This document shows, one piece after another, positions 1,572 through 32,809 of a DNA stretch of 35,906 nucleotides. Numbering within the stretch: the stretch's first letter is position 1; each line of letters starts with the position of its first letter. The position numbers were made by a program, and so were the translations under genes. The notes under the pieces are model-generated. The model did no database searches and was not told where the DNA came from. It saw only the letters and a program-made list of their open reading frames with translations. The DNA lies in the NCBI RefSeq assembly GCF_006345805.1, contig NW_021826250.1, positions 1 to 35,906 on the forward strand, given 5' to 3'. This DNA comes from Octopus sinensis. Taxonomy: Eukaryota.

Positions 1572-1815
1572 ATTTCTTTTTTTATTTCTTTATTGCCCAC
1601 AGGGGACTAAACATAGAGGGGACAAACAAGGACAGACAAATGGATTAAGTCGATTATATCGACCCCAGTGCGTAACTGGTACTTATTTAATCGACTCCAA
1701 AAGGATGAAAGGCAAAGTCGACCTCGGCGGAATTTGAACTCAGAACGTAACAGCAGACGAAATACCGCAAAGCATTTCGCCCGGTATGCTAACGTTTCTG
1801 CCAGCTCGCTGCCTT
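1572..1815 (-). mobile_element. Major tRNA-derived SINE, long-tail subfamily (3' part of the 5S-SINE chimera)
   Basis: Reverse complement of the family seen more than 15 times here: head AAGGCRGCGAGCTGGCAGAA, B-box-like GAGTTCAAATTCC, central GACTTTGCCTTTCATCCTTT..GGTCGAT..AAGTACC (resembles the Meta/Sauria-type central domain, from recall), tail ...GTGGGCAATAAAGAAATA. Confidence 0.9.
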
Positions 1816-1819
1816 TTAC

Positions 1820-1937
1820 GTTTACAGCACCTAGGTTTCTCAAGCGGTCACCCATCTATTTACTAACTAGGCTCGACTTTGCTTAACTTCGGTGATCGGA
1901 CGAGAACTGGTGTTTTCAAAGTGATATGGCCGTAAAC
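1820..1937 (-). rRNA. 5S rRNA: 5S rRNA, dispersed full-length copy (probably retroposed pseudogene)
   Basis: Minus strand reads GTTTACGGCCATATCACTTTGAAAACACCAGTTCTCGTCCGATCACCGAAGTTAAGCAAAGTCGAGCCTAGTTAGTAAATAGATGGGTGACCGCTTGAGAAACCTAGGTGCTGTAAAC (118 nt), a typical invertebrate 5S. Terminal helix GTTTAC/GTAAAC; box A AGTTAAGC; box C altered (TAGATGGG); no oligo-T terminator follows. Confidence 0.92.
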
Positions 1938-3364: not shown

Positions 3365-3788
3365 TGCATTTCGTCCCCTGCACGTTCTGAGTTCAAGTTC
3401 CTCTGAGGTCGATTTTGGTTTTCATCCTTTCGGGGTCGATAAATTAAGTACCTATTTCTTTACTACCCACAAGGGGCTAAACACAGAGAGGACAAACAAG
3501 GACAGACACACGGAGAAGGTCGATTACATCAACCCCAGTGCGTAACTGGTACTTAATTCATCGACCCGAAAGGATGAAAGGTAAAGTCGACCTCGGTAGA
3601 ATTTGAACTCAGAATGCAGCGGCGGACGAAATACCACAAAGCATTTCGCCCGTCGTGCTAACGCTTCTGCCAGCTCGCCACCTTTCGATAAATTAAGTAC
3701 CAGTGAAACACTGGGGTTAATGTAATTGACTAGTCCCCTTGCTCCAAATTTCAGGCCTTTGTGCCTTTAGCAGAAACGATTATTATTA
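3365..3788 (+). mobile_element. Major SINE, short-tail subfamily, interrupted by a nested SINE
   Basis: Body 3365-3452 resumes at 3685 and ends ...AAATTTCAGGCCTTTGTGCCT..AGAAACGATTATT. Confidence 0.8.
3453..3684 (-). mobile_element. Major SINE, long-tail subfamily, nested with 17-bp TSD
   Basis: Full head-to-tail copy; perfect TSD TCGATAAATTAAGTACC at 3436-3452 and 3685-3701. Confidence 0.9.
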
Positions 3789-4684
3789 CAATTGTTAGCA
3801 GAATCATGGGAGCGTCAGATAAAATGCATTGCTGTATGTGTCCCAGCAGTTTTTTTTTCTCAGTTCAAATCCTGTGAGGTTGACTTTGCCTTTCATCTTA
3901 AACGATAATACATATTGTCACACAATATATTTCTAAAAATCTGTCTCTATAAGACTGTTAACTGTTTATGTCTGGGAACCGGAAATAATAAATTTTAATA
4001 TATTCCGTTCGCCATTGCTTCATTATGTTTTCTCTCATCCATATAATGTTCTTCAAATCCTCGTGATCATAATATCCATAAAATAATTATTTTCTATAGA
4101 TCGTCGCTGATGAATGTCCTAGAAAGAAAATATAAAATTAATACATAATTCTCAAAGCTCACAGCTCTTGCTTTTCTGAGGACCAATCTTTTGTCTAACA
4201 TCATAAGTTTAATGCCTCTGTAGACATTTATTCATAACAAAAAAAAAAAAACTTCTGCCATTCTTTATATTTATATTTTTCTAAGCATTACATACCATAG
4301 CAATGAAAATATACTCTATTCTTTATAAACCATATAATTTCAATACCGAGTCTTGTTGCATATTGTGTCATGTTTCATAAATCTAATGCACTGTTTCTAC
4401 TCACAATCTATTTGGCTTATGAACATAACACATTTTTTTTTAAACCCGTTTCCAATTTGTAAAGATTGAGATTTTGAAAGTGAACATCTTCAGAGCATAC
4501 GTTCGTTCTTTTACTAAAATATTTTTTTATTTTTTCTTCAGACGCTCAATTCACAGGTGTGAATGTTCTAAGTACATACCCTGAGCCCTTGATTAATGAA
4601 GCACATGCAGGATTGATAAAGTTATACCCCTGTTAATTCTTACTTCTGGGGAGAGCGTAAGGATTTTGTTAGAATCTGGTCTAT

Positions 4685-5137: not shown

Positions 5138-5365
5138 ATTCACATACATCTATCGGTGACAAGACTACAAGAACACTTCTTAACGAGGACACGTCAGTAG
5201 GCTTCAAACTGGAAACGCAAACCAAAGCAAGTTTATATGGTCCGGATCACAAGTAAAATCTGATTCAAGATAGATATTAAGGTAGAGTAGAACTACAAGC
5301 AATGTAGCCAATCTCGATCGAAAGGTGACGCACGCATACACATGTTCCATTATTTACTATCACCT

Positions 5366-5808
5366 AGGCGGTGAGCTAGCAGAATCGTTAGCACGCCGGG
5401 CGAAATGCTTAGCGGCATTTCGCCTGTCACTACGTTATGAGTTCAAATTCCGCCGAGATCTACATTACCTTTCATCCTTTCGGGGTCAATAAATTAAGTA
5501 CCAGTTGTATACTGGAGTCGATCTAATCGACTGGCCCCCCTCTCCCAAAATTTCAGGCCTTGTGCCTAGAATAGAAAATATTATTTATTATCACCTAAGG
5601 CGGAGAGCTGCCAGAATCGTTAACACGCCGGGCGAAATGCTTAGCGGCATTTCGCTTGCTACTACTTTCTGAGTTCAAATTCCGCCCTGGTCGACTTTGC
5701 CTTTCATCCTTTTTGGTCCATAAATTAAGTACTAGTCAAACACTGGGTTCGATGTAATCGACTAGTCCCCTCCCCAAAATTTCAGGCCTAGTGCCTATAA
5801 AGGAAAGG
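5366..5808 (+). mobile_element. Head-to-tail pair of major SINE, short-tail subfamily (5366-5579, 5597-5808)
   Basis: Two complete copies; the 17-mer ATTATTTA(C/T)TATCACCT occurs before, between and after them (5349-5365, 5580-5596, 5809-5825). Confidence 0.9.
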
Positions 5809-6014
5809 ATTATTTATTATCACCTGACAGATGTGTGAATTGCCTCAGTTTTTATCTGACCAGACAAGAAGGTCTGCTGTTTCATTACAAGAGTGGTTCA
5901 TTTGATTAATCATAAAATTCTTCGGCTGCCAACTCTCACAGTGTGAAGACCAAGGTAAACCGTGGATAGTAATGAGCAAGAGTACAATGATACTGTATCA
6001 GCTCCAGAAATTTC

Positions 6015-6472: not shown

Positions 6473-6809
6473 TATTGGCTTTTTACGTTTCTATGCTACC
6501 ATTCAGTTTCTATAAGTACATTTCAGTGATTAATATTAATCATGAACAGTTTCCATTTTAAAGAAATGAGAATAAACTGAAGCAAACTCTTTAGAAAAGT
6601 CTAGGTTTAAGCAACTTAATACAGCTTCTATTTCAACAACATATTAATGATATATAAATTACATGATTATGAAAATCGTACGCGGATTACGCTCAGTCTA
6701 TTGCGTGGGGTGGGAGTATATTGAGTTTGTGTGTATCATATGTTTTATACACGTAAATGTATATATTTGTATTCCATTCACTTCTAAACTCAAACTGCTA
6801 ACGCCGTCA

Positions 6810-7430
6810 CACGCACGTTTCTGCCCCCGCGCTCAATGTTTCTGCATCCACGCTCAACGTTTCTGCCCCACTTCACCGTTTCCGCCCCCACACTCAACGT
6901 TTCTGCCCCCACGCTCATTATTTTTCTCCTGCACTCAACGATTCTGCCCCTGCTCTCAATGTTTTTGCTCCCGCGCTCAACGCTTCTGCCCCCGCGCTCA
7001 ATGTTTCTGCCTCCGCGCTCAACGTTTCTGCCCCCTCGCTCAATGTTTCTGCCCCTGTGCTCAATGTATCTGCCCCTGTTCTGAACGTATCTGCTCCCAC
7101 GCTCAACATTTCTGCCCCTACGCTCAACGTTTTTTCTCCCCTCGCTCAACGTTTCTGCCCCCACGCTCAACGGTTCTGCCCCTGCTCTCAGTGTTTTTGC
7201 TCCCGCGCTCAACGCTTCTGCCCCCGCGCTCAATGTTTCTGCCTCCGCGCTCAACGTTTCTGCCCCCTCGCTCAACGTTTCTGCCCCTGTGCTCAATGTA
7301 TCTGCCCCTGTGCTGAACGTATCTGCTCCCACGCTCAACATTTCTGCCCCTACGCTCAACGTTTTTTCTCCCCTCGCTCAACGTTTCTGCCCCCACGCTC
7401 AATGTTTCTACCATCCCGTGCTCAACGTGT
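6810..7430. repeat. 21-bp minisatellite, about 29 units, consensus CGCTCAACGTTTCTGCCCCCA
   Basis: Unit directly visible; the variant string TGCTCTCA(A/G)TGTTTTTGCTCCCGCG recurs at 6951 and 7183 (232-bp period). Confidence 0.95.
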
Positions 7431-7679
7431 CGGACCCCACGTTCTCTCATACCAGCAGAACCCATTCTTCTATCCCGTACCCTCTCCTCATACGCAAATT
7501 CCAGTATCCGTCCCATATTCCAGTAAGCCACTGCTAACATCTCTATACACATTAAGTCCGAAAGTACGAAATTTGTTTACTCATCTATCGAATTCGAATC
7601 TGCTTCACGGCTTTGAGTTGTGCAAAGATCTACATGTCTCTCAGTTCATATACCAATTGTGAGTCAACAAGAAGCCTCT

Positions 7680-10922: not shown

Positions 10923-11142
10923 ACTACAGCCGTCCTTTAAAGGTGGCGAGTTTGCAGAATCGTTAGCGCGTCCAACAAAGTGCTTAGCAATATCCTTTCC
11001 AGCTTTCTACGTTCTTTGTTCAAAACCCACCGAAATCAACTTGGCTTTTCGTCCTTTCGAAGTCCATAAAAATAAAAGTACCAGTCAGTATCAGGGTCCA
11101 GGTACTGACAAAGCCCCTCCCCTCAAAAACTGTTTTACTTGT

Positions 11143-11311
11143 ACAGTTCTATATTTAAGAGATGGGGAATTATGTACATTATTTACATTATTTACATTCA
11201 ACGGATATTTGTCCTCATAACCACAACGCCATATGCCTGTGGGCATATGGCGTAGTGGTTAAGAGCGCGGGCTACTAACCCCAAGATTCCGAATTCGATT
11301 CCAAGCAGTGA

Positions 11312-11349
<38 letters not shown>

Positions 11350-11558
11350 GTAATAATAATATCGAAAAATACCTTAGAAATGAGAACCCAGGTTCGAAAT
11401 TTCCCCAAGACACCTGATGAAGGCTGGAGGGTATATCAGCCGAAACGTGTTAACAACAAACAAGATGAGGACAAATATCTGTCAAATGTAAATAATGCAA
11501 ATAATGTAAACAACAAACAAGATGAGGACAAATATCTGTCGAATGTAAATAATGCACA
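11143..11558 (+). mobile_element. Non-autonomous element: tRNA-like head + (AAT)n + hammerhead motif, with inverted 5' partial copy (Penelope-like architecture)
   Basis: TSD GTTTTACTTGT 11132-11142/11559-11569. A-box TGGCGTAGTGG 11248-11258, anticodon-like arm GGG-CTACTAA-CCC, B-box-like ATTCGATTCC 11293-11302. 48-bp direct repeat 11452-11499/11509-11556. About 11173-11218 is the reverse complement of the 3' end. Confidence 0.8.
11409..11451 (+). ncRNA. Minimal type I hammerhead ribozyme motif (cleavage triplet apparently missing in this copy)
   Basis: Stem I GACAC (11409-13)/GTGTT (11447-51); core CTGATGA 11414-20; stem II GGCTG (11422-26)/CAGCC (11437-41); GAAA 11442-45 then C. No room for an NUH triplet between GAAAC and stem I. 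Confidence 0.7.
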
Positions 11559-12184
11559 GTTTTACTTGTGCCTAAATCAGAAATCAGTTTTACAATTGTT
11601 CTTGTTATTGTTAATCGCTGTTTGTATTATGTGTATCAATATGTTTACGATGAATCAATATTATCCATACACCAACGTCTTCGTTTGGCAAGCGGTGTTG
11701 TTACGCAGGTAGTTTGTTGTTCATTGTCTAGAAACTATAACGAACAAAGTGGTTACAAGAGGTCGGTGAGGTGAAGAGAACAGAGGTCAGGTTATTTCCT
11801 CTCTGTCGAAACCCTAATCACTTTCTTCAGCTACTACTTAATGCTTAATTTCCCATGAAACTCTGGAGTCATAAGCAAGAAGAGGCAAAGGTAGGGTTGA
11901 GGGAAGAGGTGGAGGTGCCTTTTGTGTATTTCATAAGACTATTATCACAAGTTAAGCTGTTTCAATCTCGTGGAACAAAGAAGAAATTATGAAGTGTGTA
12001 GGAGAATGTCGAAATAATGAGCAATATGGCGGAAACGTATTAATCTAACCTAATGTTATTTTCCTGCAGCACCTTCAAAGGATTGGAAATTAATTTACTC
12101 ACAATTAATTACCAAATTTCAGAGCTTTCATCACAGCACATATTAATTCTTGCTTTTGAAATATTTTTGTTCTTTCTCACCGCT

Positions 12185-12999: not shown

Positions 13000-13108
13000 C
13001 ATAATAATAATAATAATAATAATAACAAAAACAAGAAGAAGAAGAAGAAGAAGAAGAAGAAGAAGAAGAAGAAGAAGAAGAAGAAGAAGAAGAAGAAGAA
13101 GAAGAAGA
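13000..13108. repeat. (AAT)n then (AAG)n microsatellite
   Basis: Pure runs, about 25 AAG units. Confidence 0.95.
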
Positions 13109-13109
13109 A

Positions 13110-13691
13110 TCCTTTCTACTATAAGGACAAGGCCTGAAATTTATGGGGAGGGGGCCAGTCGATTAGATCGACCCCAGTACGCAACTGATACTTAATTTGT
13201 CGACCCAAGAAGGATGAAAAGCAAAACTCGACCTCGCTGGAATTTGAACTCAACACGTAGCGACAGACGAAATACCTATTTCTTTACTACCCACAAGGGG
13301 CTAAACACAGAGGGGACAAACAAGGACAGACAAACGGATTAAGTCGATTACATCGACCCCAGTGCGTAACTGGTACTTATTTAATCGACCCCGAAAGGAT
13401 GAAAGGCAAAGTCGACCTCGGCGGAATTTGAACACAGAACGTAGCGGCAGACAAAATACCTATTTCTTTATTACCCACAAGGGGCTAAACATAGAGGGGA
13501 CAAACATGGACAGACATAGGTATTAAGTCGATTATATCGACCCCAGTGCTTAACTGGTACTTAATTTATCGACCCCGAAAGGATGAAAGGCAAAGTCGGC
13601 CTCGGCGGAATTTGAACTCACAACGTAACGGCAGCCGAAATACCGCTAAGCATTTCGCCCGGCGTGCTAACGATTCTGCCAGCTCACCGTC

Positions 13692-13693
<2 letters not shown>
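13110..13693 (-). mobile_element. Three-unit major-SINE array (13461-13693 full length; 13277-13460 and 13110-13276 begin at the internal GGTATTT site)
   Basis: Both junctions read ...GAC(G/A)AAATACC|TATTTCTTTA on the plus strand; the last unit carries the short-type tail. Confidence 0.9.
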
Positions 13694-14061: not shown

Positions 14062-15335
14062 GGAATGTTATAGGAGAGTTCGTGCAGTCCTGAAATCTTA
14101 CTAAATGCACGTAACAAGGTGTTAGCTATAAATTCCTTAGCAGTTCCAGTTATTACTTATAGCTACAATGTGTTGAACTGGAATATGAGTGAAGTAAAGA
14201 ATATAGATAGGAAAATACGCAAGTTGCTGAGTTGTAATAGGATGCACCACCCAAAGGCAGACGTAGATCGCCTTTACCTTCCCAGAGCCCAAGGAGGTCG
14301 AGGCCTGATCCAATTTGAACTAGCTTACAAAACAACCACAATTGGACTGGCCAAATATCTCGAATATCGAATGACTGGATGCTAAAGCTCGTGGAAAATC
14401 ACGAGAGACGAAAGAAGCTTCATTCTATCATAAATGAAAGCAAAAAATTTGCTATTGATCTCGTGCAGGATACCCAAACTGAACAACCCGAGGGAAGTAC
14501 GGCAACTATTGTTGCAAAGAAGGTGAAAATGATGGCAATGAAATAAGCGCACGAGCAATTGGCTGATAGGTGGGAGGAGAAACCTCTGCACGGCAAATAT
14601 GTGACCCGCAGCAAACAAGCTGATGTTGACCAGAAGCAAACCCATCAGTAGCTACGGAGCTCAGGGCTAAAAGCAGAGAGCGAAGGTTTCATCCTGGCTG
14701 CTCAAGATCAAAGCCTATTAACCCGGAACTACCAGGCCAATGTGATGAAAAATGGAGCAGATCCAAAATGCCGATTCTGCAACGACATGATTGAAACAGT
14801 GGACCACCTAATCTCTGGATGTAAAGTCTTAGCACCAGTGGAGTATAAATTAAGACATGACAGAGTTGGCCAATGTCTCCACTGGCTAATAAGTCGGCAT
14901 TACAATATCAAAACTGCCGACAAGTGGTATAATCACCACCCTGGGGCTGTAACTGAAGGAGAAAATGTAACCATTCTGTGGGACTTTCCAGTACATACAG
15001 ACCGAACCATCAAGGCCAATAAACCAGATATTGTTGTGAAAGACCAAAACAATAAAGTTTGCTTATTGATCGACATGAGCATCCCCTGTGATCATAATAT
15101 CTCAGCGAAAGAGTTTGACAAGCTCAGAAAATATAAAGACCTACTCATTGAAATTGAGAAAATGTGGCATCTCAAGGCGGTTACAATACCAGTGATCGTA
15201 GGAGCACTAGGAATGATCAAGAAGGGAACCGAAAATTATATGAGAATGATCCCTGGCTTACCATCCCTGCAAGAAGTGCAAAAGATTGTCTTAACTGGTA
15301 CATCACACGTATTGAGAAGAGCATTGTCGATGTGA
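14062..15335 (+). pseudogene. Disrupted RT-thumb / zinc-knuckle / REL endonuclease ORF of the LINE
   Basis: Pieces 14119-14385 and 14742-15335 are open. Frameshifts near 14100 and 14365; in-frame stops TAA 14544-14546 and TAG 14649-14651. Confidence 0.88.
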
Positions 15336-30775: not shown

Positions 30776-31337
30776 AAAGGGTCCAAACATAAGCCCTAAC
30801 ATGTTGCAAACCTAGAGTCCAAATACATGTTCCAAACATAGTGTTCAAACATAAGCCCTAAAATGTTTCAAACAAGAACAGTAAGCGCGTATAACAGAGG
30901 ATCGTGGATAACGGAGAATCTAAGTAACCACGCATTCTGCTAGAAATAGTTGCCGGATTTCTCTGAAATAATGCCTTACCAACTTCAAAACGATGCATTG
31001 CTTAAATTCACTATAATTACATACATCCTGTAGTCATCCGAATAGACGGCGTAAGTTTGATATTTACGGGGGAAAAAAGATTAAAAAAAACACAACGTAT
31101 AAAAATAACAACATGATTGGGAAACCAAATTAATCAAGCGATGAGAAAATGAAATGAATGTAATTGTACGTTTCGGGTGGTGGTTGTTTGTCAGGAAAAG
31201 ACAAGTGGGCGAATGAAGCGAAAAAAAGAAAAGAATTTTTTAATTTAAATCAATGTTGATTTCAGTTTGGGTGCAAGGTGAAGAGAAATCAGTGAGTGAA
31301 AATGAGTAGAACACCAACCAATATTGCTCGACACTAA

Positions 31338-31960
31338 GGCAGCGAGCTGGCAGAAACGTTAGTGCACCGGACGAAATGCTTGCGGTATTTCGTCTGTCTT
31401 TACGTTCTGAGTTCAAATTCAACCGAGGTCGACTTTGCCTTTCATCCTTTCGGGGTTGATAAATTAAGTACCAGTTATGCACTGGGGTCGATATAATCCA
31501 CTTAATCCCATGTCTGTCCCCTCTATGTATAGCCCCGTGTGGGCAATAAAGAAATAATGTTTAAAGAAAGGTGGTGAGTTGGCAGAAATGTTAGCACGCC
31601 GAGCGAAATGCGTAGCCGTATTTCGTCTGCCGTTACGTTGTGAGTTCAAATTCCGCCGAGGTCGACTTTGCCTTTCATCCTTTCGGGATCGATAAATTAA
31701 GTACCAGTTACGCACTGGGGTCGATCTAATCGACCTATGTCTGTCCTTGTTTGTCTCCTCTATGTTTAGCTCCTTGTGGGTAATAATAAAGAAATAGGTA
31801 TTTCATCTATCTTTACTTCTGAGTTCAAGTTCCGCCGAGGTCGACTTTGCCTTTCATCCTTTCGAGGTCGATTAAATAAGTACCAGTTACGCTCTGAGGT
31901 CGATCTAATCGACTGACCCCTTCCCCAAAAATTTTGAGCCTTGTGCCTAGAGTAGGAAAG
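31338..31960 (+). mobile_element. Three-unit major-SINE cluster inside one 18-bp TSD
   Basis: AATATTGCTCGACACTAA at 31320-31337 and 31961-31978. Units at about 31338-31557, 31568-31796 and 31797-31960; the last starts at GGTATTTC and has the short tail. Confidence 0.9.
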
Positions 31961-32809
31961 AATATTGCTCGACACTAATGCTCAGAGAAAGAAAGAGAAA
32001 GAGAGAGACTGACAGAAAGGACTGAAACTTCAATGATCTCTAGCTGACAGCTGATTAAAGGAATGTCCTGAAGTGCAAGCTATTCGGATAATACATAATA
32101 TTAAGATTATAAAACAGTTAGTCTGAGATTAGAGATATATCCAATCCGGCCTGACCTGGGGCTAAGCATCAGCAAATGACGATAACAAGAACATCGACAA
32201 CGGTGAAAAGCCAACGAGGAAACCTCCGCGTGATAGTTCAAACCACAAGACATAGCAGCCAAATCACCCTAAGTTACATCCCATCGTCTTGAAAATGAGA
32301 AAGATAGGATGAGTGATGTAGTTTTAGTCCTATGTCACACTCACCTCACTAGAAAATGAAAGAGTGGTCACGGCCGGCTGTGATATCATTGGCTGAAGAT
32401 CTGCTCGATCAGAGCACATCTTGAATTAATAAAAACAATAGCAAGAACAACATCAGCGACACTGACGACAACGACGACCACGATGACGATGACTCCGTCA
32501 GCGATGGTAGCGGCGATAGTGACGGTGGCACAGTGGTGGTGACAGAAGTGAAGGCAGCGGAGAACTCACTGGTGAAGGTGGTGGAGGAGGCGGTAGCAGT
32601 AGCGGTGACGGAAGCGACAACGGTGATAGCGGTGATTCTGGCAACGGTGGTAAGCAGGACCGATAACAAGTGAAACATCAACAAAACATCGTCAAATCGT
32701 GGCCCACCTTCCCACCCCTTCCACCTCAGACACAGACACACACACACATATAAACACACACATACATACATATACACAAACACACATGCATACATACGCA
32801 CACATACAA

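What the first reader, a model, noticed from the sequence alone, without database searches (positions are those of the whole stretch)
11143..11558. Candidate 'SINE-retrozyme': tRNA-like Pol III head plus hammerhead ribozyme with Penelope-type inverted structure
Seen: a 416-bp insert with an 11-bp TSD splitting an older SINE tail. It holds a tRNA-like head (A-box 11248-58, arm GGG-CTACTAA-CCC, B-box-like 11293-302), (AAT)n, a hammerhead core (GACAC-CTGATGA-A-GGCTG[loop]CAGCC-GAAAC-GTGTT, 11409-51), a 48-bp tandem duplication of the 3' end, and no poly-A tail. Known: PLEs carry minimal hammerheads in pseudo-LTRs and often insert with inverted or tandem partial repeats; retrozymes are non-autonomous hammerhead retroelements; SINEs normally rely on LINEs. 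Inference: a non-autonomous element that uses its own Pol III promoter and a self-cleaving ribozyme and is mobilised by a PLE reverse transcriptase. This is the best candidate here for an undescribed system. This copy seems to lack the NUH triplet and is probably inactive.
Basis: partly seen in the sequence, partly recalled or inferred. Interest (0 to 1): 0.85.

Follow-up and report, generated by a model that had tools for sequence, protein, structure and literature searches.

The report
Octopus tRNA-headed hammerhead mobile element
This is one worn copy of a very abundant octopus-type mobile DNA family that joins a tRNA-like start to the self-cutting-RNA end typical of Penelope retroelements, and it probably spreads by borrowing Penelope enzymes rather than the LINE enzymes that such short elements normally use.

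Summary
In detail: a 416-bp insert with an 11-bp target-site duplication, a tRNA-like A/B-box head, (AAT)n, and a minimal type I hammerhead. The body belongs to a very high-copy family found in runs of five organisms, and in an Octopus bimaculoides record. Four runs show that the family form carries the GUU cleavage triplet that this copy lacks. Common non-CpG variants fall only at free ribozyme positions. The insertion has three Penelope marks: an inverted 3' piece, a 30-nt extension at one end only, and a partial tandem. Best reading (0.6): a SINE-like, non-autonomous element mobilised by an endonuclease-bearing Penelope-like element (PLE). Not shown: the PLE partner, Pol III transcription, cleavage, and stem covariation. 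Head-body linkage outside this copy rests on 2 contigs. The triplet-less form recurs (7 of 32 listed pieces), so cleavage may be dispensable. It is not categorically new: Schistosoma Sm-alpha/Sj-alpha are tRNA-derived, Pol III, hammerhead-bearing SINEs, and animal retrozymes are proposed PLE derivatives. The scan had no note on this family; it noted related kinds in other genomes. Verdict: new variant of a known kind.

The parts
11132..11142 (+). left target-site duplication (11 bp), inside the tail of an older SINE copy
11143..11172 (-). 30-nt 3' extension of the family, present only at this (inverted) end; PLE-type tail
   Evidence: matches the family loose-end consensus behind 11508 and 11558 and the C-terminus of P0001; Craig 2021 passage
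11173..11218 (-). inverted, 5'-truncated copy of the element's 3' region
   Evidence: 91% over 44 nt to 11465-11508
11219..11240 (-). inverted copy of the first ~19 nt of the head plus loop (fold-back hairpin with 11242-11265), joined to the inverted 3' piece at a short microhomology
11241..11315 (+). tRNA-like head; A-box 11248-58, anticodon-like arm 11269-81, B-box-like 11293-302 with one mismatch
11316..11360 (+). (AAT)n spacer, 14 AAT and one AGT
   Evidence: AAT upstream of the body in 39 contigs of run X7
11361..11408 (+). high-copy body upstream of the ribozyme
   Evidence: depth from 11368 on; P0001
11409..11451 (+). minimal type I hammerhead: stem I 11409-13/11447-51, core 11414-20, bulged A 11421, stem II 11422-27/11436-41, GAAA 11442-45; this copy lacks the 3-nt GUU triplet that the family carries behind 11446
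11452..11508 (+). 3' region, first copy (48 nt plus a 9-nt repeat)
11509..11558 (+). partial tandem copy of the 3' region, ending 30 nt short of the family end
11559..11569 (+). right target-site duplication (11 bp)

Best explanation
A non-coding, non-autonomous retroelement family of about 300 nt in octopuses. A tRNA-derived head with an internal Pol III promoter is joined, through (AAT)n, to a roughly 180-nt 3' module of the kind found in Penelope pseudo-LTRs: a minimal hammerhead followed by about 90 nt. Proposed cycle: (1) Pol III transcribes from the A/B boxes; the element has no T4 run, so it reads through to a flanking terminator (inferred). (2) The RT and GIY-YIG endonuclease of an EN+ PLE recognise the 3' module and prime reverse transcription at staggered nicks (inferred from the product). 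(3) Fold-back and template jumps give an insertion with element 3' ends facing outward at both junctions, a partial tandem, a one-sided 30-nt extension and an 11-bp TSD (product shown; enzyme inferred). The hammerhead can form helix III only as a dimer, through its self-complementary ACGU. It probably was kept intact in the source copies and cuts only occasionally, in trans or in tandem transcripts. It is probably not obligatory for each insertion. This copy's ribozyme is dead.
For: - Family: held by runs of 5 coded organisms at 0.86 of sampled words (14 runs); 19,134, 25,295, 12,023 and 3,201 contigs laid in 4 runs.
- Triplet: GTT put in behind 11446 in 4 of 4 runs (83, 82, 56, 44 contigs); loose ends at 11447 and 11448 agree. 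22 of 32 listed pieces carry 3 or more gap letters. P0001 (O. bimaculoides) has one extra residue there.
- Constraint: of 6 variant places listed inside the ribozyme, 4 are CpG decay. The other 2 are N7 (two different bases) and loop 2, both structurally free (about 0.05 by hand arithmetic).
- PLE type: all architecture points of Cervera 2014 fit. The same core and stem II occur in 50 unrelated loci; 19 of 50 have a G-U-H triplet and a stem I of 3 bp or more, with 10 distinct stems (0 of 1000 arm shuffles reach 19). In L040 the upstream ORF hits RT and GIY-YIG, in L030 GIY-YIG.
- Insertion: the inverted 5'-truncated copy, partial tandem and 30-40-bp one-sided tail are the PLE marks described by Craig 2021 and the TE curation guide. 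Opposite-strand joints appear in other contigs (2 rows shown, 1 contig per run).
- Head: colinear over 72 nt with four heads of other SINE copies in the window, with invariant tRNA positions. Head start fused to 11407 in 2 contigs of run X15 (15 of 17 letters match).
- Helper available: PLEs cover 6.83% of O. vulgaris, with 31 recently active families.
Against: - No autonomous PLE sharing this 3' end was found: no genome is held, and none of 43 locus ORFs hit the window.
- No compensatory change in stem I or II was listed at 5% or more.
- 7 of 32 listed pieces cross the cleavage site with no gap (3 of 4 runs), so the triplet-less form is recurrent or a subfamily; the list is biased toward pieces like this copy.
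- CpG decay hits C11.1 and G12 in about 7-18% of depth.
- Cleavage of a monomer would part promoter from tail.
- The PLE insertion marks were examined in full in this one copy only.
- A second SINE family in the window also shows tandem and inverted partial copies, so such marks may not be specific in this genome.
- This copy's B-box has a mismatch.
Confidence: 0.6

Rival explanations
1. A non-autonomous Penelope derivative (pLTR fragment or retrozyme monomer). The tRNA-like head is a captured passenger, or is present in a minority subfamily only, and transcription comes from Pol II or read-through.
For: The 3' module alone explains the ribozyme and the insertion marks. PLE end-pieces with minimal hammerheads are widespread single elements. 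Head linkage is barely sampled. The B-box of this copy is imperfect.
Against: The element starts exactly at tRNA position 1, and the fold-back begins there, as expected if the RNA began there. The body is preceded by AAT in 39 contigs, and the head start occurs next to the ribozyme in another organism's run.
Confidence: 0.2
2. A LINE-mobilised tRNA SINE that carries a hammerhead as a passenger or for processing (Sm-alpha-like). The inverted structure here is a one-off repair or twin-priming event.
For: SINEs normally use LINEs. LINE clades are abundant in octopus. TSDs are normal for LINE insertion. Sm-alpha is a precedent for SINE plus hammerhead. No LINE 3' end was compared.
Against: No poly-A or simple-repeat tail in this copy or in the loose-end consensuses. 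Both target junctions are element 3' ends, which twin priming of one RNA does not give (recalled mechanism). The hammerhead is the minimal PLE type, and the one-sided tail is 30 nt.
Confidence: 0.12
3. A one-off chimera at this locus: a SINE head joined by chance to a PLE end during one insertion.
For: No whole second copy was seen. Protein-space searches across the head-body join found nothing. An earlier scan note reports such a one-off join in another genome.
Against: No separate family with this head exists in the window. AAT lies upstream of the body in 39 contigs, and the head start is fused to the ribozyme in 2 contigs of another organism's run with different substitutions.
Confidence: 0.05

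Closest known systems
Sm-alpha / Sj-alpha SINE-like retroposons of Schistosoma (Ferbeyre 1998, Laha 2000; seen only as cited in PMC2770079, PMC6765202, PMC8490949 passages)
   Same: tRNA-derived head, Pol III promoter followed by a type I hammerhead, about 300 nt, tens of thousands of copies
   Different: Sm-alpha has a canonical hammerhead, is often tandem and derives from tRNA-Gln. Here the ribozyme is the minimal PLE type, there is an internal (AAT)n, and the insertion has PLE marks. The passages read name no PLE partner for Sm-alpha. Sequence homology was not tested.
Minimal hammerheads in pseudo-LTRs of metazoan EN+ Penelope-like elements (PMC4209133; PMC8557442)
   Same: core, bulged base before a long stem II, G10.1-C11.1, short stem I, palindromic helix III, position near the 3' end; inverted 5'-truncated copy, partial tandem, 30-nt one-sided tail
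   Different: no RT/GIY-YIG ORF; a tRNA-like head instead of a PLE body; partner element not identified
Animal non-LTR retrozymes (PMC7229834; bioRxiv 10.64898/2026.07.22.740005)
   Same: non-coding, about 300 nt, low GC, type I hammerhead, long TSD, proposed mobilisation by PLEs
   Different: defined as tandem repeats with a hammerhead in each unit and producing circular RNA; this copy is a monomer. No tRNA head or Pol III promoter is mentioned in the parts read.
Octopus tRNA-derived SINEs (Ohshima and Okada 1994; not readable here, seen as a citation; OR2 is a CORE SINE per PMC4758252)
   Same: tRNA-type head, octopus host, very high copy number
   Different: Whether this family is one of those three, or is an entry in Repbase/Dfam or the 2015 octopus genome supplement, could not be checked. 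No hammerhead is mentioned in what was seen.

Membership tests
PLE-type minimal hammerhead | CUGANGA and GAAA core, long stem II, base between 9 and 10.1, G10.1-C11.1, stem I of 4-5 bp | tested here: met
   against the features
PLE-type minimal hammerhead | NUH triplet with palindromic 15.2-16.2 | tested here: met
   met for the family form (GTT in 4 of 4 runs; P0001); absent in this copy and in 7 of 32 listed pieces
PLE-type minimal hammerhead | covariation in stems within the family | tested here: inconclusive
   no compensatory pair at 5% or more; variants at N7, loop 2 and CpGs only
PLE-type minimal hammerhead | self-cleavage as a dimer | not testable with these tools
   needs in vitro transcription
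EN+ Penelope-like element insertion | inverted 5'-truncated copy at the 5' end, partial tandem, 30-40-bp tail at one end | tested here: met
   this copy only:
EN+ Penelope-like element (autonomous) | RT + GIY-YIG ORF | tested here: not met
   no such ORF in the insert or window
Non-autonomous PLE derivative | 3' end shared with an autonomous PLE of the same genome | not testable with these tools
   no genome held
tRNA-derived SINE | tRNA-like head with A and B boxes at the 5' end, 80-500 nt, non-coding, TSD, high copy | tested here: met
   B-box with one mismatch; Rfam and default ARAGORN negative
tRNA-derived SINE | head present in most family members | tested here: inconclusive
tRNA-derived SINE | poly-A or simple-repeat 3' tail | tested here: not met
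tRNA-derived SINE | 3' end shared with a LINE | not tested
   no octopus LINE library available
tRNA-derived SINE | Pol III transcription | not testable with these tools
   only contigs were available; run X15 is RNA by guess only
Animal non-LTR retrozyme | tandem units each with a complete hammerhead | tested here: not met
   one hammerhead in this copy and window; family-wide arrangement unknown
Animal non-LTR retrozyme | circular RNA | not testable with these tools
   no raw reads offered
Sm-alpha / Sj-alpha | canonical type I hammerhead behind a tRNA-Gln head, sequence homology | not tested
   no Sm-alpha sequence fetched; the ribozyme here is minimal, so it works like Sm-alpha at most and is not filed as a member

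The most novel reading that the evidence does not exclude
A true Pol III SINE that parasitises Penelope-like elements instead of LINEs. It has on the order of 10^5 copies in several octopus species, and its source copies keep a working dimer-dependent hammerhead. Cleavage in trans leaves marks in the genome: the recurrent 3-nt loss at the scissile bond, and partial tandems that start at the cleavage site (here the second 3' copy begins within 1-5 nt of it). That would give the largest natural data set on how PLE enzymes insert RNA and on what their hammerheads do.
Probability: 0.35. Interest if true: 0.72.

Novelty: new variant of a known kind. Interest (0 to 1): 0.5.

Why it matters
SINEs are defined by reliance on LINEs, and the role of hammerheads in endonuclease-bearing PLEs is stated to be unclear. 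A short, very abundant, head-bearing element with PLE insertion marks would extend SINE partners to PLEs. It would define the minimal cis element for PLE retrotransposition (at most about 180 nt). It would also let one test the ribozyme's role by comparing subfamilies with and without the triplet. A sizeable part of octopus repeats now labelled SINE or Penelope may need relabelling, and octopuses would hold one of the largest hammerhead families in animals. The concept of a SINE with a hammerhead is not itself new.

Tried and rejected
- No whole genome is held, so genome-wide BLAST, a consensus and the PLE partner search could not be run.
- No second copy in the window.
- Pattern scans: the hammerhead core gave 2 loci in prokaryote genomes, 0 in viral contigs and 48 in metagenomes; none matches this family beyond the core. 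Head and body patterns gave 0 in genome and viral contigs.
- Spurious-ORF searches across the head-body join: 0 hits. The body frame gave 1 hit at near length and none among longer proteins. P0001 is a singleton.
- A loose A/B scan upstream of the hammerhead hit 5 of 50 loci (3 distinct sequences); the pattern is too loose (18 hits in the window) and was not counted as evidence of analogues.
- Head against 6 tRNA-like sequences from the loci: 2 of 6 beat all 1000 shuffles; the others were reached by 5, 10, 304 and 428 of 1000. The parent tRNA is not assigned; a resemblance to tRNA-Arg is recalled only.
- Absence of a T4 run in the element is not significant at this length and is not used as evidence.
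- RNA run X15 is RNA by guess and intronic copies would appear anyway, so it is no evidence of expression.
- Rfam miRNA hits are hairpin or microsatellite artefacts.
- Two papers were not held: the 2015 octopus genome paper and Lunse 2017. The bioRxiv preprint's supplements were not seen and could list more families.

Full report
Observation. The insert 11143-11558 lies between two copies of an 11-mer that occurs nowhere else in the window. The flanks rejoin into the tail of an older SINE copy, aligning across the junction to two other copies. On the plus strand the insert holds a head (11241-11315), (AAT)n (11316-60), a body, a hammerhead-like motif (11409-51) and a 3' region repeated at a period of 57. 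The first 98 bases are inverted material: the element's 3' end (11143-11218) joined to the first ~19 nt of the head (11219-37), which forms a strong fold-back with the head (z -5.09). A core + stem II + stem I descriptor finds only this site in the window and a hit in 1 of 100 shuffles. A strict A..B-box descriptor finds 5 sites, this one included, and none in 100 shuffles. Against this: Rfam lists no tRNA or hammerhead here, ARAGORN needs a threshold of 60%, and the hammerhead fold alone has z -0.30.

It is a family. No genome is held and the window has no second copy. The stretch 11345-11558 is held at 0.86 of sampled words by 14 runs of 5 coded organisms. Laying 11330-11600 on 4 runs placed 19,134, 25,295, 12,023 and 3,201 contigs. 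Summed depth is 8-9 million in two runs whose listed contigs have depth 30-62. This suggests of the order of 10^5 copies; the tool warns that this is no copy number, so it is a rough inference. A spurious 51-aa protein named Octopus bimaculoides matches a body frame at 79%. That record is my basis for calling the family octopus-type.

The ribozyme. In 4 of 4 runs GTT is put in behind 11446 (83, 82, 56, 44 contigs), and the strongest loose ends at 11447 and 11448 read the same way. P0001 has one extra residue at that place. The family form therefore has a GUU triplet and a self-complementary ACGU for a dimer helix III; this copy has lost 3 nt at the scissile bond. Six variant places are listed inside the motif at 5% or more. 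Four are CpG transitions (11441, 11442, 11446, 11447). The other two are 11418, the free N7 position (T>A 4.5-17% of depth; T>C up to 44%), and 11430 in loop 2. Both non-CpG places falling among 9 free of 39 non-CpG positions has a chance of about 0.05 (hand arithmetic): modest support for selection in source copies. No compensatory pair was listed. Of the 32 pieces listed, 22 carry 3 or more gap letters, 3 carry 1-2, and 7 carry none, so the triplet-less form is not unique to this copy. The list favours long pieces like the query. This argues that cleavage is not needed for every round, or that the site is a deletion hot spot.

Type of ribozyme. Cervera and de la Pena 2014 (PMC4209133, parts 1-2 of 4 read) define PLE minimal hammerheads by a long helix II, a 4-5-bp helix I, a base between 9 and 10.1, G10.1-C11.1 and a palindromic 15.2-16.2; all fit. 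They report no cleavage of a monomer and low cleavage of dimers. The same core and stem II occur in 50 unrelated public loci. 19 of 50 have a G-U-H triplet and a stem I of 3 bp or more, with 10 distinct stems; 0 of 1000 arm shuffles reach 19 (the loci are partly redundant and were picked by the pattern). Of 14 ORFs scanned, out of 43 on the same strand, 4 hit Pfam: RT plus GIY-YIG upstream of the motif in L040, GIY-YIG in L030, RT in L015 and L050. So this motif is a PLE pseudo-LTR feature elsewhere. These loci share only the core with the window.

Insertion marks. Craig et al. 2021 (PMC8557442, passages) describe PLE insertions as partial tandems, often with an inverted 5'-truncated copy at the 5' end and a 30-40-bp extension at one end only. 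Here the inverted piece carries 30 nt (11143-72) that the right end lacks. These 30 nt are the family's own continuation, seen in loose ends behind 11508 and 11558 and in P0001's end. Both target junctions are element 3' ends. Loose-end consensuses show no poly-A, and 3' ends look heterogeneous. A few opposite-strand joints occur in other contigs. The second 3' copy starts within 1-5 nt of the predicted cleavage site, at a microhomology; a cleaved fragment as first template is possible but rests on one case. Caution: another SINE family in the window also forms tandem and inverted partial copies.

The head. It aligns without gaps over 72 nt to four heads of other SINE copies in the window, with invariant T8-G9-G10-C11, A14, T33, T54-A58 and C61-C62. 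The A-box matches the consensus quoted in PMC8969392 (passages); the B-box has one mismatch. Linkage beyond this copy is thin: AAT precedes the body in 39 contigs of run X7, and 2 contigs of run X15 join the head start (15 of 17 letters) to 11407. Protein-space searches across the join were empty.

Mechanism. Shown: the anatomy, the family, the intact family ribozyme sequence and the PLE-like product. Inferred: Pol III transcription, trans-mobilisation by an EN+ PLE, and occasional dimer cleavage. PLEs are plentiful in O. vulgaris, at 6.83% of the genome with 31 recently active families (PMC13282606, part 1 of 3 and supplement). I give this 0.6, a PLE derivative with a passenger head 0.2, LINE mobilisation 0.12, and a one-off chimera 0.05.

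Comparison. Sm-alpha and Sj-alpha are SINE-like, hammerhead-bearing, apparently Pol III-transcribed, and Sm-alpha is tRNA-Gln-derived (passages of PMC2770079, PMC8490949, PMC6765202; the original papers were not read). Animal non-LTR retrozymes are tandem units proposed to be mobilised by or derived from PLEs (PMC7229834 passages; bioRxiv 10.64898/2026.07.22.740005 parts 1-3 of 5). The curation guide notes that they can be seen as a new type of SINE. This element works like these but fails their defining tests: it is a monomer with a minimal hammerhead and no simple-repeat tail. Ten paper searches listed nothing on an octopus SINE with a hammerhead or on a tRNA SINE mobilised by a PLE. Passages of PMC10886601, PMC3531059, PMC6962438, PMC8967140, PMC4758252 and 10.1101/596502 added none. 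Subscription papers, Repbase and Dfam were not visible, and so abundant a family is probably catalogued under some label.

Earlier scan notes. None for this sequence or genome. Notes on other genomes describe a ribozyme-free tRNA-like element with Penelope-type insertions, PLE end-pieces with hammerheads, and a one-off SINE-Penelope join. I used them as leads only.

Verdict. A real feature and a new variant of a known kind; interest 0.5.

Noticed in passing
window 1819-1937 (-) and 1583-1816 (-): A full-length 5S rRNA match (103.8 bits) lies directly upstream of the head of a SINE copy on the same strand; possibly a 5S-headed composite SINE.
   Followed up: no
window 3368-3900, 5349-5825, 13105-13693, 31335-31966: The most abundant SINE family of the window occurs repeatedly as partial tandem or inverted partial copies; it may share an unusual insertion mode or only nest in itself.
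   Followed up: no
window 804, 2962, 9727 (+), 26194 (-): Four more tRNA-type heads with strict A/B boxes, colinear with the finding's head but with different bodies.
   Followed up: partly
window 14652-15335 (+): A 227-aa frame that looks like the C-terminal zinc-knuckle and restriction-like endonuclease part of a LINE (motif recalled, not scanned).
   Followed up: no
window 11219-11265; run X15 loose end at 11407: In both cases the head fragment breaks off at the same place, about 20 nt in, before jumping to a downstream part; possibly a recurrent fold-back and jump at the RNA 5' end.
   Followed up: partly
L030, L038, L040 and relatives: PLE-like tandem arrangements with the hammerhead 60-130 nt before the next long frame; many other loci show a longer palindromic helix III variant of the same core.
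   Followed up: partly
window 6800-7450: GC-rich minisatellite-like repeat region giving long open frames on both strands.
   Followed up: no
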